Assembly: GCA_965140585.1 (NCBI GenBank)
Contig: OZ223269.1
Location: forward strand, 864,001-928,000
From: Spirochaetia bacterium
Lineage (GTDB): Bacteria; Spirochaetota; Spirochaetia; UBA9216
Length of the DNA: 64,000 nucleotides
Direction of reading: 5' to 3'
Shown here: piece by piece, positions 23,268 through 62,114 of the stretch
How positions within the stretch are numbered: the stretch's first letter is position 1
How the letters are laid out: every line of letters begins with the position of its first letter
Position numbers and translations under genes: made by a program
The notes under the pieces: generated by a model
Told to the model about the DNA's origin: nothing
The model's database searches: none
Seen by the model: only the letters and a program-made list of their open reading frames with translations

Positions 23268-25331
23268 ATGGGAAGCATAGATCTACCTAAAAGTCCAATG
23301 GTATTCCATCCTGAAAAGAGGAGTGCGGTGGGCTCCAGGAACTCTCTCGCTCAGGAAAGCAGGGACCAGCAGGCAGAAGTAGAAAGACTGCTCGAAGAAG
23401 AAGTAGATAAAGTCGTTAACCATATCAATGCCAAACTACCTGAAGACGTCCTCTCTAAATTGGATGTCATGGGTGGCTTAAAAGAGAAAGTTTATAACTA
23501 TTTCAACCAGAACTACCAGAATATGTTCAACCGTTACATAGTTACAACTGAAGATGAAATGGTTAAAAAGGTAAGAAACTTCATTGATAAAGAAGAAATG
23601 AAAGTTCTTACCAGGTACACCCCCAAAGAAATAGCAGCGCTGCTTGAAGAAGTAGGCGGTATGGACAGATTCAATACCGGTGAAATTGAGAAATCAATTG
23701 TTAATATGTATGGTCACCTTCAGGGGCATATACAGAGAGGTATGAATGATCTTGAAAACCTTACCAACTCACTCCTTAGACAGAAAACCGACGTTGGTGC
23801 TTTCATAAGAGGCGAGAATGCTTATTCGGTAGTTAAATGTTCATTCAAGGACAGTATCGAGAAACCAAAGACTGTATGCAACGTAAAGCTTTCAGTTAAC
23901 ATACTCGATTCCGAGCTTATAAGTCCTATTTTTCACTATCAGGCTACAGTTGAGTACTTAATCAAAGACCTTGTTTCAAAGCAGATTATTGATGCAATTG
24001 ACAAGGAAATTGAGAATCTTAAGGATGAAAGACTTGATAAGGGTCTTGAAGAACTTAATGACAGTGAAATCATCTTTCAGAAGATGGGTCGTGTAGAAAA
24101 TCATACCGCTGATGAAGTAAACAATGCAAAATCAAACAGGTATAAGTACATTGCCAAGAACATCATGGAAAAGGTTGAAGGCCTTAGAGCTGAGATTGAT
24201 CCTAATGAGTTCGATCCTCTGAACATCCGTGAAAATCTTAAGAAAATCATGGATATAGAAAATATCAGAAACAGAGGCTACAACACAGCAGTTAATTCAA
24301 TTACAAGTATTCTTGATACTTCAAAAATGGGTTATCAGTATATCGAGAACCTCAAAAATGCAAGAGAACTTGTGATTAGAGAGTATGAAGATACAGATGC
24401 AGCAATTCTTCCTGATGAAAGATATAACATCCGTCTCAAATACTACGACAATGCCCAGCTTATCGAAGAAAGAAAAGCTTATGATGTTCAGGTAAAATCT
24501 TTCGAGGTTGAAGTTGAACATGTATGGGATGTTCTTGAAATGGTTTACAGCGACGGTAAGAGATTCAAAGGTGTTGTTGATTTTAAAGATCTTTCCGACA
24601 GATACAAGAATAAAATAAAGAAGAACATCAAGGCAAAAACCGGTGATCCTCTCTACGAAGACATTGAAAAGAGCTGGGATGAAATATCTTTTGTAAGCGC
24701 AGCTGAAACTGAAGTTGAAAAAATGAACAGAACCTATGTTCTGGAAAAAGATAAACTTAAGAAAAAGCTTATTCTTATGAGAGACAAACTTCAGGATATG
24801 TACAGCTATAAGTACCCGATTCAGAGACGAGTACTTGAAGACAGACTTACTTTTCTCGAAGCTGAGTTCAATAAATTTGATTATCTTATCAATCCTTATC
24901 ATATTCAGCCAGGACTTCTTCTTGATGTTGATATTACTTCAATTAAAAGAAAGAAAGCTACTTTGGACGGTATGGCAAATGTTCTTAATGAATTCCTTCA
25001 TGGTGTTTCCAAAGGGTTCCAGGATGCGGCATTTGCAGCGTTCTCAAGAAGACGTTCTACTGTAAGAGAAGATATTGATATGAGTTTTGCTTCTGATCTT
25101 GCTGAAGATGATATGCTTAAGCAGAAATCTTTAGGTGAATCATATCTTGATATGCTTAATTCACCGGATGACAGTCCTGCACTGGCCGACACTACAATCA
25201 AAACAAAGCCTAAGGCTCCTGCTAAAAAGGCTGCACCGAAAACTAAAGCCAAGTCTAAGGGTGTTGTTGACAACGACAAGACTAAAACAAGGCGGGGCAG
25301 ACCAAGAAGATCAAATCTGGATACAATCTAA
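23268..25331 (+). CDS. cfpA: Cytoplasmic filament protein A
   Basis: [23 protein letters not shown]-terminus and AF.RRRSTV motif recalled from treponemal CfpA; strong AAGGAG SD. Confidence 0.92.
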
Positions 25332-25342: not shown

Positions 25343-25370
25343 GCCCCTCAATTTTTGAGGGGCATTTTTT
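25343..25370 (+). terminator. Intrinsic terminator after cfpA
   Basis: GCCCCTCAA-ttt-TTGAGGGGC hairpin followed by ATTTTTT. Confidence 0.8.
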
Positions 25371-25384: not shown

Positions 25385-26407
25385 ATGAACGATACTTTAC
25401 GCGTCTATGATCATCTGTCTGACAGGAATGGTTTTAATAATGCATTAATTCATTTTCAGTCTGTAATGGGTATTATCGGCGATTTTGAAGATGGATACAA
25501 TCTGGCTGATATATTGAATGATCTTGTGAATGAGAAGGAAATTAAGCAGGATCAGATGCCGTCGATAGTGAGTGCACTTCTCGTTGATAAATATTCCTAC
25601 AACTTTAAATCCGGTAATTTTATAAACAGTTTAATTGATTTTGAATATATCGCTTCTTCATTGGAGAAGCTTAAATCCTATGATTTACTGATTTCTTATA
25701 TCCACCCGGAGCTTGGATATAATGTGATAAATCCTAAGAATCCTGATAGCTGGAAAAATGTCTCAGAGTTTAGAAAAAATGAATATTTCACAGTGTATGC
25801 CGGCAAATTCACTGATGACATGACCAACTCTAAAGAGGCTGAAATGTTAATTCAGAAGGTTTTTGACCTTTTTGAGGGCAAAAAACTTAAACTTCCTGAA
25901 AATCTATTAAAAGGTAAGTATAAGTTTAAGACTCTTTCAGAGGAACCGGAGAAGAAGGCTGCACCGAAGAAAGTAGCCAAGAATCCGGTTAAAAAGACTT
26001 CAGCTTCCCAAAAAGCCGAAACATCATATCAGGATGAAGAACATGAAGAGGTCGCAGCCAGCGGACCTGTGAATACTTCAAAAATGACACCTTTATATTC
26101 AGTTCCGGTAACCAATGAACTCTTTCATAATGGTAATGTCGAAGCCTGGAAAAGGATAATTCAAAGTTTTAAAGTTAAAAACCCAGACCTCGAAGTATAT
26201 ATATTTTATGATGGTGAAAGAATTCAGAATATTGCATCATTGTTTAAATGGGGTAAAGTTAAACATGGAAGTGCTATTCTGTTTGCTGTAGCAGGTGAAA
26301 ATATTCAGGATGTTGCAAAACTTCAGAAATATTTAAAACAGGGAGCGAGCCCTCAGTTTGAAGCCTTCTTAAGGTTTCCGGTTAATACTGTTTTAAATCT
26401 CTTCTAA
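25385..26407 (+). CDS. Conserved spirochaetal protein (TP0747-like position) with a C-terminal HPr-like domain
   Basis: ATG 25385 after GAGGGA SD; K/A/P-rich linker; C-terminal ~90 aa align by eye with the HPr pattern (VTNELFH...G.V.HG..I...V.GEN). Confidence 0.65.
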   Translation: MNDTLRVYDHLSDRNGFNNALIHFQSVMGIIGDFEDGYNLADILNDLVNEKEIKQDQMPSIVSALLVDKYSYNFKSGNFINSLIDFEYIASSLEKLKSYDLLISYIHPELGYNVINPKNPDSWKNVSEFRKNEYFTVYAGKFTDDMTNSKEAEMLIQKVFDLFEGKKLKLPENLLKGKYKFKTLSEEPEKKAAPKKVAKNPVKKTSASQKAETSYQDEEHEEVAASGPVNTSKMTPLYSVPVTNELFHNGNVEAWKRIIQSFKVKNPDLEVYIFYDGERIQNIASLFKWGKVKHGSAILFAVAGENIQDVAKLQKYLKQGASPQFEAFLRFPVNTVLNLF

Positions 26408-26423: not shown

Positions 26424-29060
26424 ATGGATATCAAATCGAATATATATTTTATCAGTAAGAATAAATCATCAAAAAACGCACCTGATCAGAATAAGATAGG
26501 AATCAGAGGGCAGCAGACTTATGACCTCATTTCTATGGGAATGCCTGTAGTTCCCGGTGTAATACTCGGAACAGAAATAACTTCAAATCTTGATGATGTT
26601 GATGCAGTTATTGATGCTCTTAATCCCTTTTTTAATGATTATACAAAAGAAAGCGGTAAAACCTTCAATAGTGATAAAAATCCGATGCTTCTTAAACTGG
26701 TTATCAGTTCAAATCTTGCTATAGCAAGGTATCCTGTCCTTCATAATTTCGGACTTGCGGATAACACGTTTGAAGGCTTCAGTGAGTTTGTAGGTAAAGA
26801 TTTCGCATATCAGGAAATTCTTTTTATGCTCAACGGTATTTACGCTATTGAAGAAAGAATTGCTGAACTTAATGAAGATACTAAACTTGCTAATAAATAT
26901 CATCAGTACATAAAGGAAACCGGACGTTTTCTTAGTAAGAACATGAAGGCTGATGAATGTAAGAAATATCTTGAACAGAAAAAGAAAGAACTTCCTGAAG
27001 AGCTTTTCAGTACCGCCAGGACTCAGCTTGCAGCAGTTTTAAAACGTATAAGCTACTTGATTAAACTGGAAGACAGTGAAAATACCGGTGTTGCAGTTCT
27101 TATTCAGCCTATGGTTTACGGAAACTATGGTAAAGACAGCTATTCAGGATATTTCACTACAAGAAATACAATTACCGGGAATGGTGTTCTCGAAGGTGAA
27201 TATTTTACAAATAAATTTAATTCACCGGAATCAAGCGGAAAATCGATCAAAAATATTGATAAAAAATACCTTAAACAGTTTGAAGATATAGCCTTAAAAC
27301 TTGAAACTACATATCTTGATATCAGGAAAATTGGTTTTACTATTGAAAACGGAAGACTGTCGCTAATAAATCAAAATCCGATCAGTGAAAAATCAACCAG
27401 GGCTGATATTCAGCTTCTTCTGGACCTTAAAAATAAAAAACTTATAAATGATACTCAGGTTATTAATGCAATAAAACCTTCTGAACTAAATGAGCTTCTG
27501 CACCCGGTTATAGATCTTGATTCGGTAAAATCCATGCCGAAGGTAGAAGGCGGTATTTCTGGTGCTCCCGGCGCCGCAGTCGGAAGGGTCTTCTTTTCTA
27601 CTGAGGGACTTATTGAAGAGTATAAAACTTCAAGAATGAATGATATTGATGACAGATTGATTTTGTGTCTTACATCCAGTTTTGCAGAAGATGTAAAGGC
27701 AATAGAAATTGCTACCGGCGTACTTTCTTCCGAAGGCGGCTATTCGGCTCATGCTTCAGTAGTTGCAAGACAGTACGGTAAAGTATCGCTTGTTAATCCT
27801 GATATTAAAATTAGCGGTAAAAAGGCGACAATAGGCGGCAAGACTATTAAAGAAGGTGATTTCATAACTCTCAATGTTCCTGAATTTGATACCCCCTCAA
27901 TCGTATGGGGTAAAGCTCAGCTTATAAAACCGGATCCTGCCAAGAACGGTCTGATAGATTTCCTTAAAATTGTGAAAGAAAATATAAAAGGATTTGATAT
28001 CCGCGCAAACTGTGATAAGGCTGCAGATGCAAAACTTGCTCTTGCATTCGGTGCGGACGGAATCGGGTTATGCAGAACAGAGCATATGTTTTTCGATGAA
28101 AAACGTATCAATGTGTTTCGTGAAATGATTTTTGCCGAGACCTCTGAAGAGAGAGCAAAAGTTCTTAAAAAACTTAAACAGATGCAGAAGAAGGACTTTC
28201 AGGATCTGTTTAAGGTAATGAACGGAAAGGAAATTAATATCCGCCTTCTTGATGCACCTCTGCATGAATTTCTACCCCATAATACTGCTGAGGTAAAAGC
28301 ATTTCTCGATTACCTTAAAACTTCCGGGACGAAAATTACTGAAAAACAGCTTAGGGAAAAATCAGAAAATTTAAAAGAATTCAATCCCATGCTTGGTCAC
28401 AGAGGATGCAGAATAGCAATCAGTTATCCGGAAATTTATCAGATGCAGATCGAATCAATCTTTGAGGCTGCTTACGCTGTTAAATCAAAAGGTGTAGATG
28501 TAAAACCTGAAATAATGATACCGCTGATTATGAATGAAACTGAGCTTAAAATGATTCTTTACGGAAAAAAAATCGAGGGTTCTCATTATAAAGGGCTTGT
28601 TGAAATAGAGCAGAACGTACGTGAACGGCTGAAAGTAAAACCGGTTGATTATAAAGTCGGAACAATGATTGAACTTCCTGCAGCGGCTCTGTCTGCTGAT
28701 AATATTGCAAGATATGCACAATTTTTCTCTTTCGGCACCAATGATCTTACACAGACAACATTAGGTCTCTCAAGAGATGATTTTACTTCATTTATGCCTG
28801 ACTATACACTTTACGATATTATGAGCGGTAATCCTTTCAGGACACTGGAACGGCCTGTAAAAGAACTTATTGCTACCGCCGTTCAGCGGGGAACTATAAC
28901 AAGGCCTGACCTTAAGAAGGGACTTTGCGGAGAACATGGAGCAGCACCCGAGAATATTGAGTTCTGTATTGAAAACGGACTTGATTATGTATCATGTTCA
29001 ACCTATTCAGTACCTATTGCTGCTCTTGCAACGGCTCAGGCGCTGCTTAAGACGAATTAG
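26424..29060 (+). CDS. ppdK: Pyruvate phosphate dikinase-like protein with degenerate nucleotide-binding domain
   Basis: Three-domain PPDK layout; GGYSAHASVVAR phospho-His loop; GLCRTEHMF, RLLD.PLHEFLP, NPMLGHRGCR, SFGTNDLTQ, GLCGEH; N-terminal ATP-site motifs altered. Confidence 0.85.
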   Translation: MDIKSNIYFISKNKSSKNAPDQNKIGIRGQQTYDLISMGMPVVPGVILGTEITSNLDDVDAVIDALNPFFNDYTKESGKTFNSDKNPMLLKLVISSNLAIARYPVLHNFGLADNTFEGFSEFVGKDFAYQEILFMLNGIYAIEERIAELNEDTKLANKYHQYIKETGRFLSKNMKADECKKYLEQKKKELPEELFSTARTQLAAVLKRISYLIKLEDSENTGVAVLIQPMVYGNYGKDSYSGYFTTRNTITGNGVLEGEYFTNKFNSPESSGKSIKNIDKKYLKQFEDIALKLETTYLDIRKIGFTIENGRLSLINQNPISEKSTRADIQLLLDLKNKKLINDTQVINAIKPSELNELLHPVIDLDSVKSMPKVEGGISGAPGAAVGRVFFSTEGLIEEYKTSRMNDIDDRLILCLTSSFAEDVKAIEIATGVLSSEGGYSAHASVVARQYGKVSLVNPDIKISGKKATIGGKTIKEGDFITLNVPEFDTPSIVWGKAQLIKPDPAKNGLIDFLKIVKENIKGFDIRANCDKAADAKLALAFGADGIGLCRTEHMFFDEKRINVFREMIFAETSEERAKVLKKLKQMQKKDFQDLFKVMNGKEINIRLLDAPLHEFLPHNTAEVKAFLDYLKTSGTKITEKQLREKSENLKEFNPMLGHRGCRIAISYPEIYQMQIESIFEAAYAVKSKGVDVKPEIMIPLIMNETELKMILYGKKIEGSHYKGLVEIEQNVRERLKVKPVDYKVGTMIELPAAALSADNIARYAQFFSFGTNDLTQTTLGLSRDDFTSFMPDYTLYDIMSGNPFRTLERPVKELIATAVQRGTITRPDLKKGLCGEHGAAPENIEFCIENGLDYVSCSTYSVPIAALATAQALLKTN

Positions 29061-29137: not shown

Positions 29138-29686
29138 TTAGAAAGTACCGAAATTCTTTACGCCTTCAATCACCATCTTGGCAGCCTGTTCTGAATCTCT
29201 TTTGGGTACCTGACATTCTCTGTTAAAGGTCTGTACAAAGAAAAACTCCAATGTTTCGAAAACTTCCGGTTGATGATAAAAACATAAAGCAAAATTGATA
29301 CCGGTTGGTTTAAGAATAGTAAATGATGAATAAGTTATAATTGGCTTTTTAGGAACCATAATTTTATACTGGTTCTTTGAATTATGAATGTTAAGCTCAT
29401 TAAATCTGAACGGAATAGATTTACCGTATTCCCTGGAAACCGGTTCGATATATTTCTTGGGATACATTGAAGGTTCAACCAGTATGTACAGTTTACTTCC
29501 GTCAGTCTGAAATGTAAGACCTTCACCGCTTAAACTGATATTTTTAACTCCTGCATAGGCTACGACTTCATAAATTGCATATGGGGAATTGTTACTGAAA
29601 AATGAAGAAACAATATAACCGCCGTCCTGCGGAAGTTTACCTTCATTGTATGCCTGAAATAAATCGAGTGCTTTTACGTTACCCAT
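29138..29686 (-). CDS. Hypothetical cytoplasmic protein
   Basis: 182-aa ORF with strong AGGAGG SD; no motif recognised. Confidence 0.75.
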   Translation of the reverse strand: MGNVKALDLFQAYNEGKLPQDGGYIVSSFFSNNSPYAIYEVVAYAGVKNISLSGEGLTFQTDGSKLYILVEPSMYPKKYIEPVSREYGKSIPFRFNELNIHNSKNQYKIMVPKKPIITYSSFTILKPTGINFALCFYHQPEVFETLEFFFVQTFNRECQVPKRDSEQAAKMVIEGVKNFGTF

Positions 29687-29738: not shown

Positions 29739-31631
29739 TTATCTTTTTTTCATTTCCTCTGCTTTACTGAAATACATTTTGGAATAATCTTTAAGACCTT
29801 TTTCACGGTAGATTATTCCCATATTACGAAACAGCCGCCAGTCACGATGACCGCTGTATAAACATTTCTGAAAAATGGTTAATGCCTCTTCAGGTTTTCC
29901 CAGCCTGTACAATGAAACTCCATATGTCAGGAATAGATCTGTTCCCGGCTTTGGCAGGTAATCTATTGCCGCTGCAAGCAGAAGACCTGCCTGAACTTCA
30001 TTTCCAGATCTTCGATAGCAGTAGACAAGGTTTTTCAGTATATTTTCATCATCAGGAAAAGTTTGTAGTATTCTGCGATAGAGTATTGCGGCTTCTCTGT
30101 AGTTTTTACACATTCTATTGCAGTATGCAAGCTGCCTGATTATTTTAACATTTGTACTCTGTTCAGCTGAAATAATTTCCAGTTCAGTTATAGCCTGTTT
30201 GAAATTTACATTCTTGATATAGATATGTACAAGCTTTTCTCTAATCTGCTGATCCGATCGGTAAACCCGAAGGTAATCACTAAGAATTTTAGCAGTATTA
30301 TTATCAAAGCTGTTATGATGAATGAGTAAAAGGCCGTCCCAGGCTTCTTTGTGATCAGGTTTGGCCGCTACAGCTTTTTTAAAAAGTTTTTCAGCTTTTC
30401 CGGGATCTTTTCCCTGTTTTAAATAGTATTCACCCAGGACAGTACAGTACCAGTGATCAGGATTTTTCTTGATTCTCTGCTCGATAGCAAACTTCCATTC
30501 AGATTCCGGTTCTTTTAAATAATAACTGCACAAGGGCTTATAATATTCAGCAAATTCGTCTGACGGATTTATTTTCAGGATCGCAGTAATTTCTTTCTTC
30601 ATATTACTGTAATCTCTTAACAGCCATAGCGAAGCAGCCCGTCCCTGCATAGCACCTGAGGACTTTCTGTTTATTTCAAGAGCCCTTGTGAAATGATTAT
30701 AAGCTATCTCAATATTTCCGGATTTAAGCATACAGTCGCCGGCAAGCAGATGCATATTTTCGGTTATACCTTTTTTAAGGGATTTGATGGCAAAATGAAA
30801 AGCAGATTTATACTCATTTCTTTTGTAATAGGATACTGCTAATATATCTTCAAGATTACTGATATTACTGATAAAGTTGTTCTTCTCAGCAGGAGTCATA
30901 AAAGAACTTAAAACATGATCACCTTCCTCAATTTGCCCGCTAAGAAAAAGAGCCTCTGCCAGCAGGCTTTTTATTTCATTATCATCAGGGGCGTATTCTG
31001 AGGCCATCTGTAAAAAATCCGCAGCTTCATCCGCTTTTCCGCTGTCTTTCAGAATGATTCCTGTATAAAGAAGGGTAGAAAGGTTTGAGTTGTCAGAATC
31101 ATTCAGAAAGAGAAATCCTGATAGGGCATAGTCGAAATCCTCTTTTCTGAAGGCATCAACTGAAGCAATAAAAACCGCATTTACGTACATCGTATAAATT
31201 GATCTGTCAACGGGATCCAGATTAACAGCCTGTTCAAGATATCTTAGTGCTGTTCTGAATTTTCCCCGTCTTACAAGGGAATATCCGTAATAGGCATAGG
31301 CGGGAGCGAAACCGTTGTTGTACTGTATTGATTCGGCAAAACAAATTGAAGCCTGTACAAAATTATCTAAAGCAATATAGGTTCTTCCGAGATAAAAATA
31401 TCCGGCTCCTGATTCTGGTACTTTATCTATATAAAATTTATAGGCAGTAACAGCGGCTTCAAGATTACCAAGGGCATGGTTTGCCCTTCCTGTATATAGA
31501 AAGGCTTCCGGGAGGCTGTCAGTCAGAACCAGCACCTCTTTCAGTTTTTTCAGTGCTGTCTGATAATTCCGGCTGCGGCCGTCTTCTATTGCCTCAGCAA
31601 GAAGTTTTTCAGGACTTTTGGTTTTTATCAT
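29739..31631 (-). CDS. Tetratricopeptide-repeat protein
   Basis: Many TPR consensus repeats (e.g. AGYFYLGRTYIALDNF..A...F). Confidence 0.85.
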   Translation of the reverse strand: MIKTKSPEKLLAEAIEDGRSRNYQTALKKLKEVLVLTDSLPEAFLYTGRANHALGNLEAAVTAYKFYIDKVPESGAGYFYLGRTYIALDNFVQASICFAESIQYNNGFAPAYAYYGYSLVRRGKFRTALRYLEQAVNLDPVDRSIYTMYVNAVFIASVDAFRKEDFDYALSGFLFLNDSDNSNLSTLLYTGIILKDSGKADEAADFLQMASEYAPDDNEIKSLLAEALFLSGQIEEGDHVLSSFMTPAEKNNFISNISNLEDILAVSYYKRNEYKSAFHFAIKSLKKGITENMHLLAGDCMLKSGNIEIAYNHFTRALEINRKSSGAMQGRAASLWLLRDYSNMKKEITAILKINPSDEFAEYYKPLCSYYLKEPESEWKFAIEQRIKKNPDHWYCTVLGEYYLKQGKDPGKAEKLFKKAVAAKPDHKEAWDGLLLIHHNSFDNNTAKILSDYLRVYRSDQQIREKLVHIYIKNVNFKQAITELEIISAEQSTNVKIIRQLAYCNRMCKNYREAAILYRRILQTFPDDENILKNLVYCYRRSGNEVQAGLLLAAAIDYLPKPGTDLFLTYGVSLYRLGKPEEALTIFQKCLYSGHRDWRLFRNMGIIYREKGLKDYSKMYFSKAEEMKKR

Positions 31632-53902: not shown

Positions 53903-54089
53903 GTATATTTAAACTGCTAAATTTTCTGATTGATTGAAAAATATTTTCAGGTGTATCCTATTATATATAACTTTATAGTTTTTAACGATTTTTTAGAGAT
54001 ATGCGGTATAACATTGCAATAGCGGAGTTATATGGAACTCAGGAACAAGAAATTTGGTTAGTTTAAGAGTTCTGTTATTTTTAAGATAT

Positions 54090-54133
54090 TTTTTTGTTAT
54101 ATAGAAAAATAGGGATCGAATATGTTATGTAGA
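54090..54133 (+). other. attI recombination site; crossover G/TT predicted at 54124-54125
   Basis: GTTATGTAGA at 54124-54133 is the exact reverse complement of TCTACATAAC (55942-55951) at the end of cassette 1. The left boundary is approximate. Confidence 0.7.
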
Positions 54134-54236
54134 ATTTAGGAATGATTATATGTTTTATAACGATTTGTCAATAAAAAAATTTAGATGTGTTATAGAAATT
54201 TATGCTAAAATATAAGAAAAGTGACATGAGGGGAAT

Positions 54237-55940
54237 ATGAAAATTACATGTATTGATAAGGATATAAAGAAAGTTTTAGAGACTGGGTATTTTCATATAC
54301 CGAGGTTTCAAAGGCCATATTCTTGGGAAAAAGAGCATATCGAACAATTTTGGATCGATACAGTAAAAAATCATACTAAAGATTATTTTATTGGGTCGTT
54401 TGTTTTATTTAAGAAAGAAGATGAATTATATGGAATAGTAGATGGTCAACAGAGAATAACCACAATTACATTGATTTTATGTGCTTTACGAGATGCATAT
54501 ATAAAGTATGATTTTGATAATCAAGCTAAAGGTGTTCATAATCTTGTTGAAAAAATAAACTTAGATAATGAGAAACGTTTTATTTTACAGACTGAATCAT
54601 CATATCCGTATTTTCAAGAATATATACAAAAATATGATGACCCAGAAATTGAAGTTGAATTGGGATCCGAGGAGATTAATTTAAAAAAAGCATTTGATCT
54701 AATTAATAAATATATCAAAGAAGATTTGGAGTTAATTAATAAAAATCAACAAATTTCTGATAAGAAAGAAGAAATAGAAAAGCATCTTAGCTTTATAAGA
54801 AATTGTATTCTTAAATTGAATGTAATATATATTGAATTGGATAATGAAGAGAATGCTTATACAGTTTTTGAAACATTAAACACTAGAGGTAAAGAATTAA
54901 ATGTCTCAGATCTCATAAAAAACTATTTATTAAAAAATATCAAATCGAAGAATGTGAAGGTAGATATTGCAAAAGAAAAATGGAATAGAATTAGAGATAA
55001 TATTGATAGAGCAGCTATTAATATTGATATGGATACTTTTATGGTACATCATTGGTTATCTAAGTATGAATATACAACAAAAAAAACATTATTTTCTCGA
55101 GTTGAAGTTGTTATAAAAATTATTGATATACAAAGATATTTAGATGAGTTAGTTAACGATTCTAATATTTATTCTATAATTTATGATCCGGATCTATATA
55201 AATGGAGTAAGAATGAAATTATTCTAAAAGAATCTTTAAATGCGTTGTCCTTATTTAATGTTTCACAACAAACACCAATAATTTTATCAATTTTAAGAGC
55301 TTATCATGAAAAACGCATTACTTTTGCATATGCAAGAGATTTTCTATTATTGATTGAAAAATTTCATTTTATATTTACGGCAATAACATCACAAAGATCT
55401 TCTGGAAGCATTGCTACAATGTATTCAACAATGGCAAGAAAATTATCAAATTCTGGATCAAATAAAGAAACGGCTGATATTTATAAGGAGCTAAAACATC
55501 GACTAATTGCAAAACTTCCCTCATATGATGAATTCCTTGCTAATTTTGTTAAATTACAATATACAGACACTTATAGAAAAGATAAAAAAATAATTCAGTA
55601 TACTTTGAAGAAATTTGATATGTTTTTTAATAAAAGAGGATCACCTATAAATTATGATCTTATGACTATAGAGCATATTTCGCCTCAAAATCCTAAAGAA
55701 AAATATGATATTAATTATGATGATTCTATGGGTGCAATTGGGAATTTGCTTCTCACTGATGCAAATTTAAATGGAAAATTGAAGAATAAAAAATTTAGTG
55801 ATAAAAAAGAACTTCTTTTGAAAACGTCTATCAATATTGATGAAATAATAATTAATAGTATTGAATGGAACAACGAGAAAATACAAGAAAGAACTTTGTT
55901 TATATCTAAAAAATTATATGAAAATGTATTTAGATTATAA
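54237..55940 (+). CDS. Cassette 1: DUF262 + DUF1524 (HNH) protein, GmrSD/SspE-like restriction-type nuclease
   Basis: IPRFQRPYSW, VDGQQRITT, FETLNTRG and C-terminal EHISPQ...GNLLL...N...N. Confidence 0.9.
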   Translation: MKITCIDKDIKKVLETGYFHIPRFQRPYSWEKEHIEQFWIDTVKNHTKDYFIGSFVLFKKEDELYGIVDGQQRITTITLILCALRDAYIKYDFDNQAKGVHNLVEKINLDNEKRFILQTESSYPYFQEYIQKYDDPEIEVELGSEEINLKKAFDLINKYIKEDLELINKNQQISDKKEEIEKHLSFIRNCILKLNVIYIELDNEENAYTVFETLNTRGKELNVSDLIKNYLLKNIKSKNVKVDIAKEKWNRIRDNIDRAAINIDMDTFMVHHWLSKYEYTTKKTLFSRVEVVIKIIDIQRYLDELVNDSNIYSIIYDPDLYKWSKNEIILKESLNALSLFNVSQQTPIILSILRAYHEKRITFAYARDFLLLIEKFHFIFTAITSQRSSGSIATMYSTMARKLSNSGSNKETADIYKELKHRLIAKLPSYDEFLANFVKLQYTDTYRKDKKIIQYTLKKFDMFFNKRGSPINYDLMTIEHISPQNPKEKYDINYDDSMGAIGNLLLTDANLNGKLKNKKFSDKKELLLKTSINIDEIIINSIEWNNEKIQERTLFISKKLYENVFRL

Positions 55941-55944
55941 ATCT

Positions 55945-56080
55945 ACATAACAAGAGATTTGGAGTAGTCAAAATTTATTGTCACGATTCTGGCTAAAGAC
56001 GTTCGCTGATCGCTCACTCCAGAATCGCGCCAATTCGGCGAAGACGCCGATCAATTTTGCTACTCAAATCGTCGTTCTAC
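55945..56080 (+). repeat. attC site 1
   Basis: R'' ACATAAC; GATTTGGAGTAG / CTACTCAAATC arms with one extra G; R' GTTCTAC; 136 bp. Confidence 0.93.
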
Positions 56081-56210
56081 AGAACAATATAGTTAGTGAC
56101 AACAACAATAAAATAAGTAGATGCAATTAAGGTAAAAAGTTCACTGGTAGCTGGTCATTTGGGGATAAACCTCCGGTGGAAGATTTATTTTGTGGCTATA
56201 AATTTGGAAA

Positions 56211-56260
56211 TAGACAATAATTGAATTATATAGTACATTTAACGTGCGTTATAGCGTACG
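56211..56260 (+). promoter_or_regulatory. TA cassette promoter/operator
   Basis: TAGACA-N17-TACATT overlapped by GTAC/GTGC/GTAC cores spaced 11 and 12 bp, resembling YefM-family operators. Confidence 0.6.
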
Positions 56261-56268
56261 GAGGTTTT

Positions 56269-56511
56269 ATGAGTTCTATAAACATTACAAATGCGAGAAA
56301 AGACCTATACAGAATTGTTGAATCAGTCAATTTATCACATGAACCAATTCATATAACTGGAAAAAATAATTCCGCTGTTCTAATTGGGGAAGAGGATTGG
56401 AAGAGTATTGAAGAAACACTTTACTTAATGTCTATTCCAGGAATGAGAGAATCTATAGTAGATGGAATGAATTCACCTATAGATGATTTAGAAGAGGATC
56501 TGGATTGGTAA
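56269..56511 (+). CDS. yefM: Cassette 2: Phd/YefM family antitoxin
   Basis: NITNARKDLY, PIHIT, AVLI.EEDW.SI.ETLYL..IPGM; ATG 56269 after GGAGG. Confidence 0.93.
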   Translation: MSSINITNARKDLYRIVESVNLSHEPIHITGKNNSAVLIGEEDWKSIEETLYLMSIPGMRESIVDGMNSPIDDLEEDLDW

Positions 56512-56772
56512 ATGTATCGATTACTCTATACAAAACAAGCTAAAAGAGACGCTAAGAAACTATCAGAAAGTAATCTTAAAAGAAAAACCCAAGAATTATT
56601 AGACATAATAAAAATAGATCCATTTCAAAATCCACCACCATATGAAAAATTAATTGGAGATTTAACTGGAGCCTATTCTATACGCATAAATATCCAGCAT
56701 CGACTTGTATACCAAGTTATTAATGACGAACATATTGTAAAAATATTAAGAATGTGGACACATTATGAATAA
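56512..56772 (+). CDS. yoeB: Cassette 2: Txe/YoeB family toxin
   Basis: P.EKL.GDL.G.YS.RINIQHRLVY and terminal HYE. Confidence 0.94.
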   Translation: MYRLLYTKQAKRDAKKLSESNLKRKTQELLDIIKIDPFQNPPPYEKLIGDLTGAYSIRINIQHRLVYQVINDEHIVKILRMWTHYE

Positions 56773-56781
56773 TATATGTCT

Positions 56782-56919
56782 GTAGAACAAGCAGTTGCAA
56801 CAGTCTTAGCTATTGTCAAGGTTCTGGCTGAGACGTTTCGCGCTGATGCGCTACACTCCAGAACCTCGCCAATGCGTGTGAAAACACACGCCGCTAAGCT
56901 GCTGAACTGGTCGTTATGT
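56782..56919 (+). repeat. attC site 2 (divergent arms)
   Basis: R'' GTAGAAC; CAGTTGCAACAGTCTTAGC / GCTAAGCTGCTGAACTG arms; R' GTTATGT; 138 bp. Confidence 0.9.
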
Positions 56920-57041
56920 TTAACATTTTATAGAGTAAATAGTAATGGGATGAAAAATCTTTAATTGATTGAATAGAATTTAAGAGATTGATACCCTATA
57001 AAAGTATTTTTATATATTGAATAAATAGTAGGATGGAGATA

Positions 57042-57827
57042 ATGAAAAAGAAATTAATAATAGCATTATGCTTTTTTATGGTTGTAATATCAGTATATTC
57101 GCAAGAAAGATATGAAATACTTGTTTCTGAACCAGAAATCGATAAGAAGTTAGTTTTAGATGATTATTATCTGTGTCGAAATATATATTTTGATTTCTTT
57201 GTTTCTTTAAAAATTGATGATGAATTATCAATTAATGATACGAAGACCTTATTTAAAAAGATAATTGAGAATACATGCGAAACAAGACAACAAGAGATAA
57301 CAATCAACGGGAAAGAAAGAATATTTATCAGGATAAAACCAATTATTATTAATAATCAAGAAAATTTAGTTGTATACTCAAATTATAATGTTAAAACTAA
57401 ATTATTTGAAAAGGATTTTGAACAATTAAAAGACTTATATGCAAAAAGGTATATGATAGTAAATGATAAGATCATTGATGCAAAGAAGATCCTTGATGAT
57501 ATTGAAGAAAGAAAACTAATAGACGATTGGAAAAACACAAACCAATATAATAAGATCGCTGATCATCTAATAAACTATTCAGTTAATGATAATATTCAAG
57601 ATATTATTACTACATTAAATATGGGAATTAATAATAATTCTAATACAATTGAAGATACGTTATTACTGAATTTTAGTTATTTAGAATATTTTTTAAAAAT
57701 GAAAGAATACAAAGATTTTGAAAACAAAATATATGAAATTGGTGTGGTTGATGGCGATTCTGATTTTATTCAAGATATCATTAGAAATTTTGATAGATTA
57801 AAGCAAATTTTAGTTGGAATAGAATAA
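57042..57827 (+). CDS. Cassette 3: secreted hypothetical protein
   Basis: Signal peptide MKKKLIIALCFFMVVISVYSQ after GGAG (alternative ATG 57033); no family recognised. Confidence 0.75.
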   Translation: MKKKLIIALCFFMVVISVYSQERYEILVSEPEIDKKLVLDDYYLCRNIYFDFFVSLKIDDELSINDTKTLFKKIIENTCETRQQEITINGKERIFIRIKPIIINNQENLVVYSNYNVKTKLFEKDFEQLKDLYAKRYMIVNDKIIDAKKILDDIEERKLIDDWKNTNQYNKIADHLINYSVNDNIQDIITTLNMGINNNSNTIEDTLLLNFSYLEYFLKMKEYKDFENKIYEIGVVDGDSDFIQDIIRNFDRLKQILVGIE

Positions 57828-57847
57828 CTATTAAAAGAATTATGTAA

Positions 57848-57985
57848 ACATAACATGAGATTTGGAGTAGTCAAAATCTTTGTCACAGTTCTGGCGGAGA
57901 CACTCCGCGCTGATCGCGCTGCGTTCCAGAACTGCGCCAAGCCTCGAAGACTCGGCCGATTTCGCTACTCAAATCGTCGTTATAT
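57848..57985 (+). repeat. attC site 3
   Basis: ACATAAC...GTTATAT; same arms as attC1; 138 bp. Confidence 0.93.
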
Positions 57986-58122
57986 TCAATAAAGGTAACG
58001 GCCGGTAACTTGGTCAACACATTTCTAATAGATTAGTGTACAGCAGCGATTTATTAAGAAAAAGAGATTAGATTAGCTCCTGATTAAAATAATACGCCTA
58101 AAAGAGTTATAAGATTAAAGGA

Positions 58123-58217
58123 ACTTATTGATTTTCCATTTCATTACAAATCAATAAGTCTTTATATTCTAATGACTTAGCTAACAATTGTCTATTTAAA
58201 GATGCGAATGATAGAAT
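58123..58217 (+). promoter_or_regulatory. Cassette 4 palindrome + promoter module
   Basis: 12-bp inverted repeat ACTTATTGATTT-N13-AAATCAATAAGT, then TTGTCT-N18-TAGAAT with TG extension. Confidence 0.6.
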
Positions 58218-58416
58218 TATTTATAAAATATAGTTCCCAGGGGCTGAAAACAGCCTTAAAATGGTAAAATACAGAAAATTGTGTACACGTAGTTATTAGA
58301 AATTTGTATACAAAGCTCGGTCTGAACATAAATTGTGTTTTAATTAAATATTTGTAGGAGAAGTTGCTAATTTAATGGTATAAGTAAATAATATTATAAA
58401 ATTAAGGATTTAAGAA

Positions 58417-59130
58417 ATGAATGAAGTTGCAAAAATTATTTTAAAAAACAAAAATATTTTATTGATTTTAATCTCAATTATTCTATTGGTGATTTTAAAT
58501 TCTCTTAAAGATGTATTTTTTAGTGGTGAATTTTATGAAAGAACTAATAGATACATCAGCTGGATACTGGATCTCTTAATTATAATACAAAAAATTAAGT
58601 TGATTAAACATATATATAAAGATTTGATAGATGAAAATTATAGAGCTAATTTGAATATCAAGAGGGCTATAATAAATTACATAAGTTCAAATTTGGCAAT
58701 TGCAATACAAATGTTTCCATTTATTATAGGGTTTGTAGTAATCGAGTTGTTTAAAAGAAACTCTATTATTAATTTTAGTAATGAAAAAAATGATTTAATT
58801 TTTTTAATTGTTACGACTCCATACCTATATTTATTTATCTTTACTTTAGTGATAGCGTCAGTTGAAGATATAGGATGGTTTCCTAATACAAAAAGTTCAT
58901 TCATGTTTATTAGAGAAAATAATGGTGAACTGTATAAATTGATAATTATATATTTGTTTCCACAAGTAATATTATATATATCAAATGCTTTTCTTCCTTT
59001 AGATAATCAAGAATATATTTTATATAAATCTTTAATTGAAGTTGTTAAGATATTAATTTTCCCGGCATTATGTTATAAATATTTTGTAATTAATTTTAAG
59101 AATAAAAAACTTTTAATCAATAATATGTGA
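58417..59130 (+). CDS. Cassette 4: multi-pass membrane protein of unknown function
   Basis: About 5-6 hydrophobic segments; E..G.....KSS pattern loosely recalling DUF975/YciC-like membrane proteins. Confidence 0.7.
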   Translation: MNEVAKIILKNKNILLILISIILLVILNSLKDVFFSGEFYERTNRYISWILDLLIIIQKIKLIKHIYKDLIDENYRANLNIKRAIINYISSNLAIAIQMFPFIIGFVVIELFKRNSIINFSNEKNDLIFLIVTTPYLYLFIFTLVIASVEDIGWFPNTKSSFMFIRENNGELYKLIIIYLFPQVILYISNAFLPLDNQEYILYKSLIEVVKILIFPALCYKYFVINFKNKKLLINNM

Positions 59131-59145
59131 TATTAATAAAATTGA

Positions 59146-59284
59146 ATATAACAAGAGATTTGGAGTAGTCAAAACCTTTGTCACAGTTCTGGCTAAAGAC
59201 ACTCCGCGCTGATCGCGCTGCGTTCCAGAACTGCGCCAAGCCTCGAAGACTCGGCCGGTTTCGCTACTCAAATCGTCGTTATAT
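59146..59284 (+). repeat. attC site 4
   Basis: ATATAAC...GTTATAT; near-identical to attC3; 139 bp. Confidence 0.93.
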
Positions 59285-59412
59285 TTATTCACAGGGACGA
59301 GCATACATCTTTGCGTATAGATACTGAATAAGTAGGTAACCTAAGAATAGTAGATAGAATTTAATCAGATTTTATAAATAATTTGGATGTAAAGAAATTG
59401 TAAAATATGGAA

Positions 59413-59506
59413 ACTTAATGATTTTCTATTACATAGAAAATCATTAACTAAATATCTTTTAAAGAATTATTAAGATTTGCCAATATGAATGTTTGCATGA
59501 TAAAAT
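59413..59506 (+). promoter_or_regulatory. Cassette 5 palindrome + promoter module
   Basis: 15-bp inverted repeat TTAATGATTTTCTAT-tac-ATAGAAAATCATTAA, then TTGCCA-N18-TAAAAT with TG extension. Confidence 0.6.
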
Positions 59507-59617
59507 TAAAAAGATTAGCAAAAGATATATGGGGACAGTAGAAAAAGTGAAAATATTTTTTAACATAATAATTAGAATTATGCAATCAATACCCCTTTGG
59601 ATCAGTAGGACTATAAG

Positions 59618-60580: not shown

Positions 60581-60604
60581 AAAGATTATTAAGAAATATG
60601 AAAA

Positions 60605-62109: not shown

Positions 62110-62114
62110 AATCC

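What the first reader, a model, noticed from the sequence alone, without database searches (positions are those of the whole stretch)
26424..27380. Systematic loss of ATP/Pi-site residues in the PPDK N-terminal domain
Compared by eye with the Clostridium symbiosum PPDK sequence as recalled: GGKG (K22) becomes GIRG; LLVSVRSGA (R92) becomes MLLKLVISS; SMPGMMDT is absent; NAQGEDVVAG becomes NKFNSPESSG; DMQDMEF (D321/E323) becomes DIRKIGF; LYFLQTR (Q335/R337) becomes LSLINQN. Structural scaffold motifs survive (G.P..PG, Q.MV.GN, TRN..TG, FTIE.G.L) and the ORF is intact, so this looks like a retained pseudo-domain rather than decay. Automated annotation as a metabolic PPDK may be wrong.
Basis: partly seen in the sequence, partly recalled or inferred. 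Interest (0 to 1): 0.7.

Follow-up and report, generated by a model that had tools for sequence, protein, structure and literature searches.

The report
Filament-linked PPDK paralogue, rebuilt ATP site
This gene is a spirochaete-wide sister copy of the enzyme pyruvate phosphate dikinase that keeps its phosphoenolpyruvate and phospho-histidine machinery but has rebuilt its ATP-binding domain, always travels with the cytoplasmic-filament gene cfpA, and is the only "PPDK" in a syphilis-spirochaete-like genome.

Summary
Window 26424..29060 (+) encodes an intact 878-aa, full-length homologue of PPDK. All 10 phospho-His and PEP/pyruvate-site positions checked are invariant.

It is not decay:
- N-domain dN/dS is 0.020.
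- The fold is still that of the PPDK nucleotide-binding domain (an ATP-grasp domain).
- The replacements are themselves conserved: R28, K91, H107, F265, E299, R301 and Q317 throughout, and R/K304 in most members but G in this window.

The gene belongs to a distinct paralogue clade found across the phylum: 156 of 301 genomes in a class sample and 55 of 151 in a phylum sample. This genome also holds a canonical PPDK and a pyruvate kinase. The clade co-occurs almost perfectly with cfpA (153 of 301 and 55 of 151). It usually sits in a cfpA – orf350 (TP_0747 family) – PPDK-like cluster.

A 1.14-Mb genome, G148, has only this form and no pyruvate kinase. Its protein is 99% identical in the N-terminal 350 residues compared to one that NCBI names as from Treponema pallidum.

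Best reading: a PEP-driven phospho-His enzyme whose N-domain no longer does canonical Mg-ATP/AMP chemistry. The acceptor is unknown. The rival reading, a still-active PPDK with a relocated site, is not excluded.

The parts
26424..29060 (+). PPDK-like gene of the divergent ('D') clade, 878 aa plus stop
   Evidence: ORF listing and translation. Full-length match to solved PPDKs. PF02896 scores 230.8 bits and PF00391 28.7 bits; PF01326 is below its cut-off.
26424..27458 (+). N-terminal domain (residues 1-345) with the fold of the PPDK nucleotide-binding (ATP-grasp) domain. Canonical ATP/Pi/Mg residues are replaced. Clade-conserved R28, K91, V93, S95, Y103, H107, F265, R301 and Q317 are present here. 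At positions 299, 304, 316 and 318 this protein carries D, G, N and N, where most clade members have E, R/K, D/E and R.
   Evidence: Alignments. AF2 model of residues 1-327 with pLDDT 88.2. Foldseek top hits are PPDK nucleotide-binding domains, E 8e-17, TMq 0.69. dN/dS 0.020.
27459..27953 (+). Central swivel domain (about residues 346-510) with the phospho-carrier His443 (codon 27750..27752) in the motif GGYSAHASVVARQYG
   Evidence: PF00391 hit at residues 410-484. His443 is invariant in 82/82; the flanking surface differs from the canonical GGMTSHAAVVARGMG.
27954..29057 (+). C-terminal PEP/pyruvate TIM-barrel domain (residues 511-878) with R551, R607, H659, R660, E750, N773, D774, C835 and E837
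   Evidence: PF02896 hit at residues 519-872. All listed residues are invariant in 82/82 D-clade and 22/22 canonical sequences.
25385..26407 (+). orf350 (TP_0747-family protein). It has an N-domain, a disordered charged linker and an ultra-conserved C-domain (residues 241-350, numbered from the TTG at 25355) with invariant His258. Its stop lies 16 nt before the PPDK-like start codon.
   Evidence: ORF list. Alignment of 22 orthologues, with the conserved start at M11. Atlas neighbours carry PF27497 TP_0747_N. His258 is present in 77/77. C-domain dN/dS is 0.012.
23268..25331 (+). cfpA, the cytoplasmic filament protein A gene
   Evidence: NCBIfam NF040882 scores 1187.9 bits against a cut-off of 500.
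25343..25363 (+). Terminator-like hairpin (9 pairs, 6 G-C, then a T run) between cfpA and orf350
   Evidence: Consensus scan. This is a pattern match only.
29138..29686 (-). Convergent 182-aa gene of no known family, a conserved neighbour of the cluster
   Evidence: tblastn finds it beside the D gene in 21 of 28 D loci. No Pfam or NCBIfam hit.
29739..31631 (-). 630-aa repeat-rich gene, also a conserved neighbour. 'TPR' was only my working label; it was never scanned against a family library.
   Evidence: tblastn finds it in 20 of 28 D loci.

Best explanation
The gene encodes a neofunctionalised paralogue of pyruvate phosphate dikinase that is tied to the spirochaete cytoplasmic-filament locus.

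Shown:
- The PEP/pyruvate barrel and the phospho-carrier histidine domain are fully intact.
- The N-terminal domain keeps the fold of the PPDK nucleotide-binding domain but has lost the canonical Mg-ATP/AMP/Pi residues. In the clade it has gained its own conserved residues at or next to the same columns: R28, K91, H107, R301 and Q317 throughout, plus R/K304 and D/E316 in most members.
- The window's own protein has gone further and carries G304, N316 and N318.
- The protein is under strong purifying selection.
- It co-occurs with cfpA and with the TP_0747-family gene orf350 across the phylum, and is usually adjacent to them.

Inferred mechanism:
1. PEP phosphorylates His443 at the C-domain and pyruvate is released.
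2. The His domain swivels to the rebuilt N-domain.
3. There the phosphoryl group passes to an acceptor other than the canonical AMP/PPi pair.

Candidate acceptors are orthophosphate (making PPi), the orf350 protein (invariant His258 in a weakly HPr-like fold), and CfpA. Which one is used is unknown.
For: 1. Intact PEP and His chemistry. H443, R551, R607, H659, R660, E750, N773, D774, C835 and E837 are invariant in 82/82 clade members. PF02896 scores 230.8 bits.

2. Canonical ATP site gone. K22->R (99% of the clade), R92->V (99%), D321->S/Q/K, E323->R (89%; G here), Q335->D/E (N here). R337 is kept as R in 87% of the clade but is N here. The Gly-rich loop is one residue shorter and the IRTP segment is deleted in 82/82. 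Members from other classes of the phylum show the same state.

3. Not decay. dN/dS is 0.020 for the N-domain, 0.007 for the His domain and 0.010 for the C-domain. The canonical paralogue's N-domain gives 0.014. 56 N-domain columns are at least 95% conserved in the clade, and 27 of them are clade-specific. The AF2 model has pLDDT 88.2, and PPDK nucleotide-binding domains are the top Foldseek hits.

4. Separate role from PPDK. The same genome has a canonical PPDK and a pyruvate kinase. In 18 genomes holding both paralogues (153 pairs), median N-domain identity is 42.7% in the clade against 71.0% for canonical PPDK. The other two domains are about equal: 63.6 vs 68.6 and 67.1 vs 69.6.

5. Link to the filament.
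   - orf350 lies beside the gene in 26 of 28 D loci, and the cfpA tail is seen in 22 of 28.
   - Class sample: D gene in 156/301 and cfpA in 153/301. By my hand comparison of the two handle lists, the three extra D genomes (G117, G121, G154) have the D gene within about 1.4 kb of a contig start.
   - Phylum sample: 55/151 for each, with one D-only and one cfpA-only genome.
   - In families f68 (6/6) and f89 (3/3) the two genes lie on different contigs, yet both are kept.
   - One database protein, P0363, fuses CfpA to the orf350 N-domain.
   - In T. denticola, TDE0844 ('pyruvate phosphate dikinase') and CfpA (TDE0842) are both among the 16 major envelope-fraction proteins (PMC3931704 Table 2, passage read). 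TDE0842-0844 are repressed together (PMC3914990 Table 5, passage read).
Against: - No biochemistry exists for any member, so loss of ATP/AMP turnover is inferred from residues alone.
- Some charge is kept or relocated. K22->R is conservative. K91 sits two residues before the lost R92, on what should be the same face of the strand. E299 and D/E316 keep two acids near the old metal site, and R337 stays R in 87% of the clade. A relocated but working nucleotide site therefore cannot be excluded.
- G148 has no other PPDK and no pyruvate kinase. That would be simplest if this protein still carried glycolytic PEP-to-pyruvate flux. G148 does have a GTP-type PEPCK and an oxaloacetate decarboxylase beta subunit as a possible bypass.
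- The HPr likeness of orf350 is weak. VIA-align Z is 6.3-7.5, below the tool's own noise mark of about 8. Foldseek gives no hit at E <= 0.001. hhalign probability is 0.78%.
- Co-occurrence across related genomes is not a set of independent observations.
Confidence: 0.6

Rival explanations
1. It is still a working PPDK (PEP + AMP + PPi <-> pyruvate + ATP + Pi). Its nucleotide/Pi site has been re-engineered with non-homologous residues: R28 for K22, K91 for R92, and E299 with D/E316 as metal ligands. The cfpA linkage would reflect only localisation of a glycolytic enzyme on the filament.
For: - The PPDK nucleotide-binding fold is retained, and basic and acidic residues persist near the old site.
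- G148 has no PF01326 match and no pyruvate kinase, so this is its only PPDK-type enzyme. The T. pallidum literature assumes this reaction (PMC10013896, passages read).
- Purifying selection on the N-domain is as strong as in the canonical paralogue over short distances.
Against: - None of the six named residues is identical. The Gly-rich loop and the NAQGEDVVAGIRTP loop are lost or shortened in 82/82.
- E323 is charge-reversed to R/K.
- The N-domain evolves much faster than the canonical one: median identity 42.7% vs 71.0%.
- The window's own family has additionally lost R304, D316 and R318 while staying under purifying selection.
- In the first relatives search, 28 of 41 genomes carry the D type, and most of those also show a canonical-type match at 36-39% identity.
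- G148 has a PEPCK/OAD bypass.
Confidence: 0.25
2. The N-domain is a catalytically inert scaffold, a true pseudo-domain. It only tethers or dimerises a PEP/pyruvate-sensing module on the CfpA filament, and the phosphoryl group goes no further than His443 or is lost to water.
For: - The canonical residues are lost and N-domain constraint is relaxed over long distances.
- The protein is abundant in the envelope fraction together with CfpA (PMC3931704).
Against: - 27 clade-specific columns at least 95% conserved lie in the N-domain, many at or next to the old active-site columns: R28, K91, V93, R301, Q317.
- The His-domain surface around His443 has co-changed in a conserved way. That is expected if it still docks productively on the N-domain.
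- The catalytic Cys835 and all PEP-site residues are kept.
Confidence: 0.12
3. The gene is a decaying duplicate (a pseudogene in the making), and the substitutions are random drift.
For: Sub-threshold family scores. One orthologue, in G022, carries an in-frame TAG.
Against: - The frame is open in 27 of the 28 D-type places in the first relatives search.
- dN/dS is 0.013 over the whole gene.
- The same substitutions are shared across the phylum.
- The T. denticola orthologue by gene order is an abundant protein.
Confidence: 0.02

Closest known systems
Pyruvate, phosphate dikinase (EC 2.7.9.1; C. symbiosum 1dik, maize 1vbg)
   Same: Same three-domain order and length. Full-length alignment at E 1.6e-139. 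Same phospho-His, PEP-site Arg/Glu/Asn/Asp residues and catalytic Cys. The N-domain fold matches.
   Different: None of K22, R92, D321, E323, Q335 or R337 is identical. The Gly-rich loop is shortened and the IRTP segment deleted. The protein scores below the TIGR01828 and PF01326 cut-offs. It is a separate paralogue clade, 36-39% identical to the canonical enzyme of the same genomes, and is linked to cfpA.
PTS Enzyme I with HPr
   Same: A PEP-binding barrel of the same family (PF02896), a swivelling phospho-His domain, and an adjacent small gene whose product has, at best, an HPr-like fold with an invariant His at the N-cap of the first helix.
   Different: The N-domain has the PPDK nucleotide-binding fold, not the helical HPr-binding EIN subdomain. 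TIGR01417 scores 98 bits against a cut-off of 341.7. orf350 shows no significant sequence likeness to HPr. True EI and HPr genes exist elsewhere in the genome.
PEP synthase and rifampin phosphotransferase (ATP-grasp + swivel His + third domain)
   Same: The same modular logic of a His domain shuttling between two sites. They are the next-best fold matches for the N-domain, at E about 1e-6 to 2e-5.
   Different: Those enzymes keep a working ATP site; rifampin phosphotransferase was solved with AMPPNP or ADP bound, per the entry titles. Sequence scores to PEP synthase models are far below their cut-offs.
Treponema 'PPDK' TP0746 / TDE0844 as annotated in the literature
   Same: The same clade by sequence for G148's protein: 99% identical over the N-terminal 350 residues to a protein named as from T. 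pallidum. The same gene order, cfpA - hypothetical - 'PPDK', as reported for TDE0842-0844 and TP0748/TP0746.
   Different: The papers treat it as a glycolytic PPDK that makes ATP from AMP + PPi (PMC10013896). The residue evidence here does not support taking that for granted.

Membership tests
Pyruvate, phosphate dikinase (TIGR01828 equivalog; EC 2.7.9.1) | Score at or above the curated equivalog cut-off | tested here: not met
   638.5 bits against a cut-off of 843.45.
Pyruvate, phosphate dikinase | PPDK_N (PF01326) AMP/ATP-binding domain at gathering score | tested here: not met
   23.1 bits against 27, and only residues 274-327 match. The whole-genome scan with PF01326 does not list this gene at E <= 0.001.
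Pyruvate, phosphate dikinase | ATP/Pi/Mg-site residues K22, R92, D321, E323, Q335 and R337 (C. symbiosum numbering). That these are the catalytic set is recalled; the PDB titles 1jde 'K22A mutant' and 2dik 'R337A mutant' show two of them were studied. | tested here: not met
   In the window they read R28, V93, K302, G304, N316 and N318. In the clade the commonest residues are R 99%, V 99%, S/Q/K, R 89%, D/E and R 87%.
Pyruvate, phosphate dikinase | Phospho-carrier His and PEP/pyruvate-site residues (His455, Arg561, Arg617, Glu745, Asn768, Asp769, Cys831) | tested here: met
   H443, R551, R607, E750, N773, D774 and C835 are invariant in 82/82.
Pyruvate, phosphate dikinase | Three-domain fold with an ATP-grasp-type nucleotide-binding N-domain | tested here: met
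   Full-length alignment to 1dik. The N-domain model's top Foldseek hits are PPDK chains, E 8e-17 to 2.5e-14 and TMq 0.58-0.69.
Pyruvate, phosphate dikinase | Reversible ATP + Pi + pyruvate <-> AMP + PPi + PEP activity | not testable with these tools
   Needs an enzyme assay. No assay of any clade member turned up in the paper searches.
PEP-utilising enzyme superfamily (PF02896 + PF00391) | Both domains above gathering score | tested here: met
   230.8 bits (cut-off 22.8) and 28.7 bits (cut-off 23.1).
PTS Enzyme I (TIGR01417) | Family cut-off, and a helical HPr-binding N-terminal subdomain | tested here: not met
   98.3 bits against 341.7, with only the C-domain aligning. The N-domain has the PPDK nucleotide-binding fold.
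HPr phosphocarrier (PF00381), considered for orf350 | Sequence-profile match to HPr | tested here: not met
   The PF00381 genome scan does not hit orf350. hhalign of A3 against 15 spirochaete HPrs gives probability 0.78%, E 0.072.
HPr phosphocarrier, considered for orf350 | HPr fold with the active His at the N-cap of helix A | tested here: inconclusive
   Best VIA-align rows are HPr: Z 7.5 for residues 82-176 and Z 6.3 for residues 247-335. HPr entries fill much of the weak Foldseek list, E 0.1-0.6. Both are below the tools' significance marks. Invariant His258 directly precedes predicted helix 259-275, after strand 248-251.
TP_0747 family (PF27497 TP_0747_N), for orf350 | Membership of clusters that carry the family | tested here: met
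   The nearest Atlas clusters score 0.96, 0.94 and 0.94, and 92-98% of their members carry PF27497. The Pfam copy on hand returned no PF27497 hit, so there is no HMM score. G148's orf344 aligns as an orthologue.
CfpA cytoplasmic filament protein (NF040882), for the upstream gene | Equivalog cut-off | tested here: met
   1187.9 bits against 500.

The most novel reading that the evidence does not exclude
Spirochaetes carry a private PEP-driven phosphorelay built from a PPDK paralogue acting like Enzyme I and the TP_0747-family protein acting as a His258 phosphocarrier. The relay reports glycolytic state to, or controls assembly of, the CfpA cytoplasmic filament. A second bold variant is that the rebuilt, metal-free basic pocket transfers the phosphoryl group to orthophosphate, making the enzyme a PEP:phosphate phosphotransferase that supplies PPi to the PPi-dependent glycolysis of treponemes.
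Probability: 0.2. Interest if true: 0.9.

Novelty: new variant of a known kind. Interest (0 to 1): 0.74.

Why it matters
- **Annotation and metabolism.** The protein annotated as PPDK in treponemes belongs to this clade. That includes G148, a 1.14-Mb genome whose copy is 99% identical in its N-terminal 350 residues to the T. pallidum protein and which has no pyruvate kinase and no canonical PPDK. Papers assume it makes ATP from PEP, AMP and PPi (PMC10013896). If the ATP site is gone, the last step of glycolysis and the ATP/PPi budget of the syphilis spirochaete need re-examination. A PEPCK plus oxaloacetate decarboxylase route, or a new reaction, would have to carry the flux.
- **The cytoplasmic filament.** The near-perfect co-occurrence and clustering with cfpA gives that filament two conserved candidate partner proteins, this enzyme and orf350. 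As far as I recall, the filament's function is still unclear. This makes the question directly testable by knock-outs, pull-downs and phosphotransfer assays.
- **Domain evolution.** It is a clean natural case of an ATP-grasp-type domain being rebuilt while the rest of a swivelling-domain enzyme is frozen.

Tried and rejected
- **Decay or pseudogene.** Rejected on dN/dS and phylum-wide conservation.
- **Sole PPDK of this genome.** Rejected: a canonical PPDK and a pyruvate kinase are present.
- **Complex prediction.** D-clade residues 1-515 (alignment A1) were run with orf350 residues 241-350 (alignment A3). ipSAE was 0.00 in both runs and the verdict was 'no answer'. This is not evidence either way.
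- **orf350 versus HPr by sequence.** hhalign probability was 0.78%, and the PF00381 genome scan does not hit orf350. Homology is not claimed.
- **Foldseek on the orf350 model.** No hit at E <= 0.001.
- **PDB sequence searches.** orf350 gave only chance-level rows at E >= 0.23, and CfpA gave nothing.
- **Pfam scan of 22 orf350 orthologues.** Nothing credible; the best E was 0.0042, in a single member.
- **The listing of cluster members.** The query could not be made because the shared database was switched off.
- **T. pallidum two-hybrid interactome (PMC2386257).** The main text has no cfpA or dikinase terms. The one readable supplement, a zip cut at 4 million characters, has no TP0746-0748. 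The .xls tables could not be read, so an interaction may be recorded there unseen.
- **Izard 2001 (PMC94976).** Not held.
- **iTP251 metabolic model paper (PMC12097511).** The main text never mentions a dikinase or pyruvate kinase. Its supplements were not opened.
- **Earlier findings of this scan.** Nothing near this place.
- **Not attempted.** A rooted tree to date the duplication, RNA read mapping for co-transcription, and coevolution analysis beyond a simple residue table.
Full report
**What is at the coordinates**

Window 26424..29060 (+) is an open frame of 878 codons. Against the Protein Data Bank it aligns end to end with pyruvate phosphate dikinases; C. symbiosum 1dik_A/2dik_A give E 1.6e-139 over query 17-876. 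Pfam finds the PEP-binding barrel (PF02896, 230.8 bits, residues 519-872) and the mobile His domain (PF00391, 28.7 bits). The AMP/ATP-binding domain PF01326 stays under its cut-off (23.1 vs 27 bits) and matches only residues 274-327. NCBI's PPDK equivalog TIGR01828 also fails its cut-off (638.5 vs 843.45 bits).

| C. symbiosum PPDK | This protein | Residue change |
|---|---|---|
| GGKG | GIRG | K22 -> R28 |
| LLVSVRS | LLKLVIS | R92 -> V93 |
| SMPGMMDT loop | replaced, one residue shorter | |
| NAQGEDVVAG(IRTP) | NKFNSPESSG, four residues deleted | |
| DMQDMEF | DIRKIGF | D321 -> K302, E323 -> G304 |
| LQTR | INQN | Q335 -> N316, R337 -> N318 |

The numbering was read off the 1dik rows. That these six residues are the catalytic set is recalled from the C. 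symbiosum mutagenesis literature, which I could not retrieve (one search found nothing). The PDB titles 'K22A mutant' (1jde) and 'R337A mutant' (2dik) show that at least two were studied.

The other two domains are untouched. H443 (the phospho-His), R551, R607, H659, R660, E750, N773, D774, C835 and E837 are invariant in 82 of 82 clade members and in 22 of 22 canonical PPDKs. I also counted the columns that are at least 95% conserved in 22 canonical spirochaete PPDKs. The clade keeps the same residue in 36 of 174 N-domain columns, 25 of 63 His-domain columns and 117 of 164 C-domain columns.

**It is a paralogue, not the genome's PPDK**

The window's genome (G000, 4.85 Mb, 10 contigs) also holds the following:
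- a canonical PPDK at C4:362733-365375, with GGKG, LLVSVRSGAAVSMPGMMDT, NAQGEDVVAG, DMQDMEF and LQTRNGKRT all intact
- a 482-aa-frame pyruvate kinase
- four Enzyme-I-like genes

A protein search of 41 related genomes gives a bimodal result. 28 genomes have a match at 45-100% identity, which I call the D clade. The canonical type appears at 36-39% identity, often in the same genomes.

**The rebuilt site is old and conserved**

I aligned 82 non-identical D sequences with 22 canonical ones. The replacements turn out to be fixed:

| D-clade position (window numbering) | Clade state | Canonical position (C. symbiosum numbering) |
|---|---|---|
| 28 | R, 99% | K22 |
| 91 | K, 100% | S90 |
| 93 | V, 99% | R92 |
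| 95 | S, 100% | |
| 103 | Y, 95% | |
| 107 | H, 100% | Leu |
| 265 | F, 100% | Q of NAQ |
| 299 | E, 95% | D318 |
| 301 | R, 99% | Q320 |
| 304 | R, 89% | E323 |
| 316 | D/E | Q335 |
| 317 | Q, 100% | T336 |
| 318 | R, 87% | R337 |

Eleven members from other classes of the phylum, and G043, show the same motifs; position 304 is K in most of the other-class members. The window's own family is the exception and has gone further, with G304, N316 and N318 (and D at 299).

In all, 56 N-domain columns are at least 95% conserved in the clade, and 27 of them are clade-specific.

An AF2 model of residues 1-327 is confident (pLDDT 88.2, pTM 0.87). Its best structural matches are PPDK nucleotide-binding domains (5jvj_A, E 8.4e-17, TMq 0.69). 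Rifampin phosphotransferase and PEP synthase come next. The fold is therefore kept.

**Selection**

Between G000 and its congener G001, Nei-Gojobori dN/dS values are:

| Region | dN/dS |
|---|---|
| D gene, N-domain (90 synonymous, 10 non-synonymous differences) | 0.020 |
| D gene, His domain | 0.007 |
| D gene, C-domain | 0.010 |
| Canonical paralogue, N-domain | 0.014 |

Over long distances the N-domain is freer. In 18 genomes with both paralogues (153 pairs), median identities are:

| Domain | D clade | Canonical |
|---|---|---|
| N-domain | 42.7% | 71.0% |
| His domain | 63.6% | 68.6% |
| C-domain | 67.1% | 69.6% |

The His-domain surface around His443 has also changed in a conserved way: GGYSAHASVVARQYGK against GGMTSHAAVVARGMG, and DVKAI against DIGGM. 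I read this as a domain that lost the tight constraints of nucleotide catalysis but keeps a function, with its docking partner, the His domain, adjusted to match.

**Neighbourhood**

The gene upstream (23268..25331) is cfpA, the spirochaete cytoplasmic filament protein (NF040882, 1187.9 bits). Between cfpA and the PPDK-like gene lies orf350 (25385..26407), whose stop is 16 nt before the PPDK-like ATG. A terminator-like hairpin (25343..25363) follows cfpA.

Neighbours found by tblastn in the 28 D loci fetched with 1.5-kb flanks:

| Neighbour | Loci with a hit | Note |
|---|---|---|
| orf350 | 26 of 28 | the other two loci hold N-terminally truncated genes at contig ends |
| cfpA 3' end | 22 of 28 | |
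| convergent 182-aa gene | 21 of 28 | |
| 630-aa gene | 20 of 28 | |

None of these was found in the two canonical-PPDK loci that were in the same search.

The 80 loci kept come from records titled Spirochaet-, Treponema, Sediminispirochaeta, Marispirochaeta, Rectinemataceae or Gracilinema, apart from two titled only 'bacterium'.

**Co-occurrence with cfpA**

| Sample | D-type N-domain (profile A2, E <= 1e-50) | cfpA (NF040882) |
|---|---|---|
| Class, 301 genomes | 156 | 153 |
| Phylum, 151 genomes | 55 | 55 |

- In the class sample the printed per-family tallies are identical except in three families. By my hand comparison of the two handle lists, the three extra genomes are G117, G121 and G154. 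Each has the D gene within about 1.4 kb of a contig start in a fragmented assembly. I found no genome with cfpA but without the D gene.
- In the phylum sample there is one D-only genome (G349) and one cfpA-only genome (G414), again by hand comparison of the lists.
- Several large families have neither gene: f26 0/31, f12 0/32, f65 0/21 and f70 0/21.
- In families f68 (6 of 6) and f89 (3 of 3) the two genes sit on different contigs, yet both are kept.

Related genomes are not independent, so I give no statistic. Still, the pattern holds across dozens of families and survives loss of linkage.

**orf350**

- It has no hit in the Pfam or NCBIfam copies on hand. Its nearest Atlas clusters carry the recent family PF27497 'TP_0747_N' (score 0.96).
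- A profile of 22 orthologues finds only 233 cluster representatives among 1.84 billion proteins. One of them, P0363 (841 aa), is CfpA (residues 8-594, 627 bits) fused to the orf350 N-domain (residues 618-823). This may be a true fusion or a gene-calling artefact.
- The protein has an N-domain, a disordered charged linker and a C-domain of about 110 residues. The C-domain is extremely conserved (dN/dS 0.012). His258 is invariant in 77 of 77 loci and His304 is present in 75 of 77.
- In the AF2 model (pLDDT 72.9) the best structural neighbours of both halves are HPr phosphocarriers. VIA-align gives Z 7.5 for residues 82-176 and Z 6.3 for residues 247-335, and HPr entries fill much of the weak Foldseek list.
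- His258 directly precedes the first helix after the first strand. As I recall, that is where HPr carries His15.
- These scores are below the tools' own significance marks, and profile comparison with 15 real spirochaete HPrs is not significant (probability 0.78%). I treat the HPr likeness as a lead only.

**Treponemes**

G148 is a single 1,139,633-bp contig, 99% complete. On one strand it carries cfpA (678 aa), orf344 and a 901-aa D-clade protein with LLGIRG, LLKVVLSPNLAISNYPVLHNFGL, REIREVRFTIE and LWLIEQK.

- It has no PF01326 match and no pyruvate kinase.
- Its only other PF02896 gene is Enzyme-I-like.
- It does have a GTP-type PEPCK and an oxaloacetate decarboxylase beta subunit, so a PEP -> oxaloacetate -> pyruvate bypass is conceivable.
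- The N-terminal 350 residues of its D protein are 99% identical to P0121, which NCBI names 'putative PEP-binding protein [Treponema pallidum]' and UniRef names 'Pyruvate, phosphate dikinase'.

From passages I read in four papers:
- TP0746 and TP0748 (CfpA) are listed on the same (reverse) strand (PMC3373638).
- In T. denticola, TDE0842 (cfpA), TDE0843 (hypothetical) and TDE0844 ('pyruvate phosphate dikinase, putative') are repressed together (PMC3914990 Table 5).
- TDE0844 and CfpA are bands 1 and 3 of the 16 major envelope-fraction proteins (PMC3931704 Table 2). That is an odd place for a soluble glycolytic enzyme, but expected for a filament-associated one. That TDE0844 is the D-clade copy rests on gene order and on G043's sequence, not on a named record.

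I found no paper that notes the loss of the ATP-site residues or the paralogy.

**Mechanism**

Shown: the PEP site and phospho-His are intact; the canonical ATP/Pi/Mg residues are replaced by a different conserved set; the fold is retained; selection is purifying; and there is genomic coupling to cfpA and orf350.

Inferred: PEP phosphorylates His443, the His domain swivels to the rebuilt pocket, and the phosphoryl group goes to something other than AMP/PPi. In most of the clade, acidic metal ligands are replaced by Arg or Lys (E323 -> R/K304, Q320 -> R301) and a new Lys91 appears. This suggests a pocket that binds an anionic group without Mg-nucleotide.

Candidate acceptors are orthophosphate, the orf350 protein (His258) and CfpA.

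The main rival is a PPDK that still works with relocated residues (R28, K91, E299, D/E316). I give it about one chance in four, mainly because G148 has no other PK or PPDK.

**Novelty and verdict**

This is a new variant of a known kind: a phylum-wide, filament-linked PPDK paralogue with a rebuilt nucleotide domain. Databases partly flag it by the name 'putative PEP-binding protein'. The literature I could search still treats it as PPDK. Its interpretation is right that this is not decay and that the PPDK label is unsafe, but 'pseudo-domain' is probably too weak a description.

Noticed in passing
window 25343-25363: A strong terminator-like hairpin (9 pairs, 6 G-C, then a T run) lies 12 nt after the cfpA stop and overlaps the TTG start listed for orf350. 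The real orf350 start is therefore probably the ATG at 25385. cfpA may be transcribed partly apart from orf350 and the PPDK-like gene.
   Followed up: partly
window 29138-29686 (-) and 29739-31631 (-): A 182-aa gene of no known family and a 630-aa gene lie convergent to the PPDK-like gene. They are conserved neighbours in 21 and 20 of 28 D loci, so they may belong to the same functional neighbourhood.
   Followed up: partly
protein P0363: An 841-aa database protein joins CfpA (residues 8-594) to the orf350 N-domain (residues 618-823). It is either a natural fusion or a gene-calling artefact. P0351 joins the orf350 N-domain to a LigA fragment and looks chimeric.
   Followed up: partly
G000:C9:384514-385475 (outside the window): A second pyruvate kinase match is split into two adjacent reading frames (234-aa and 264-aa frames). 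This could be a frameshift or a sequencing error.
   Followed up: no
G000:C6:735580-736686 and G000:C7:691287-691481 (outside the window): A 998-aa frame carries a good PPDK_N domain (125 bits), possibly PEP-synthase-like or rifampin-phosphotransferase-like. There is also an 85-aa fragment with a PPDK_N match.
   Followed up: no
window 54001-64000: G+C drops to 25-30%, against 34-44% in the rest of the window. This may be a foreign or otherwise special region.
   Followed up: no
L022 (G022:C61:6509-9136): One D-clade orthologue carries a single in-frame TAG. It could be a sequencing error, a pseudogene or read-through. The frame is open at the other 27 D-type places of that search.
   Followed up: no
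G324, G355, G389, G347, G337 and G383; loci L166 and L172: D-clade members of about 965-972 aa in families f73, f59 and f81 match the N-domain profile in two pieces. This implies an insertion of roughly 90 residues in the helical part of the N-domain.
   Followed up: no
77 loci with both genes: Enzyme position 316 and orf350 position 291 vary together. D316 goes mostly with His291; E316 mostly with L, I, T, M, V or S; N316 with L or Q. This may be shared ancestry only, but it is a lead for a contact.
   Followed up: partly
G000:C5:148343-149440 and G000:C6:677728-678825: Two oxaloacetate decarboxylase beta-subunit matches have identical scores (539 bits each). This looks like a recent duplication or a repeated region.
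   Followed up: no
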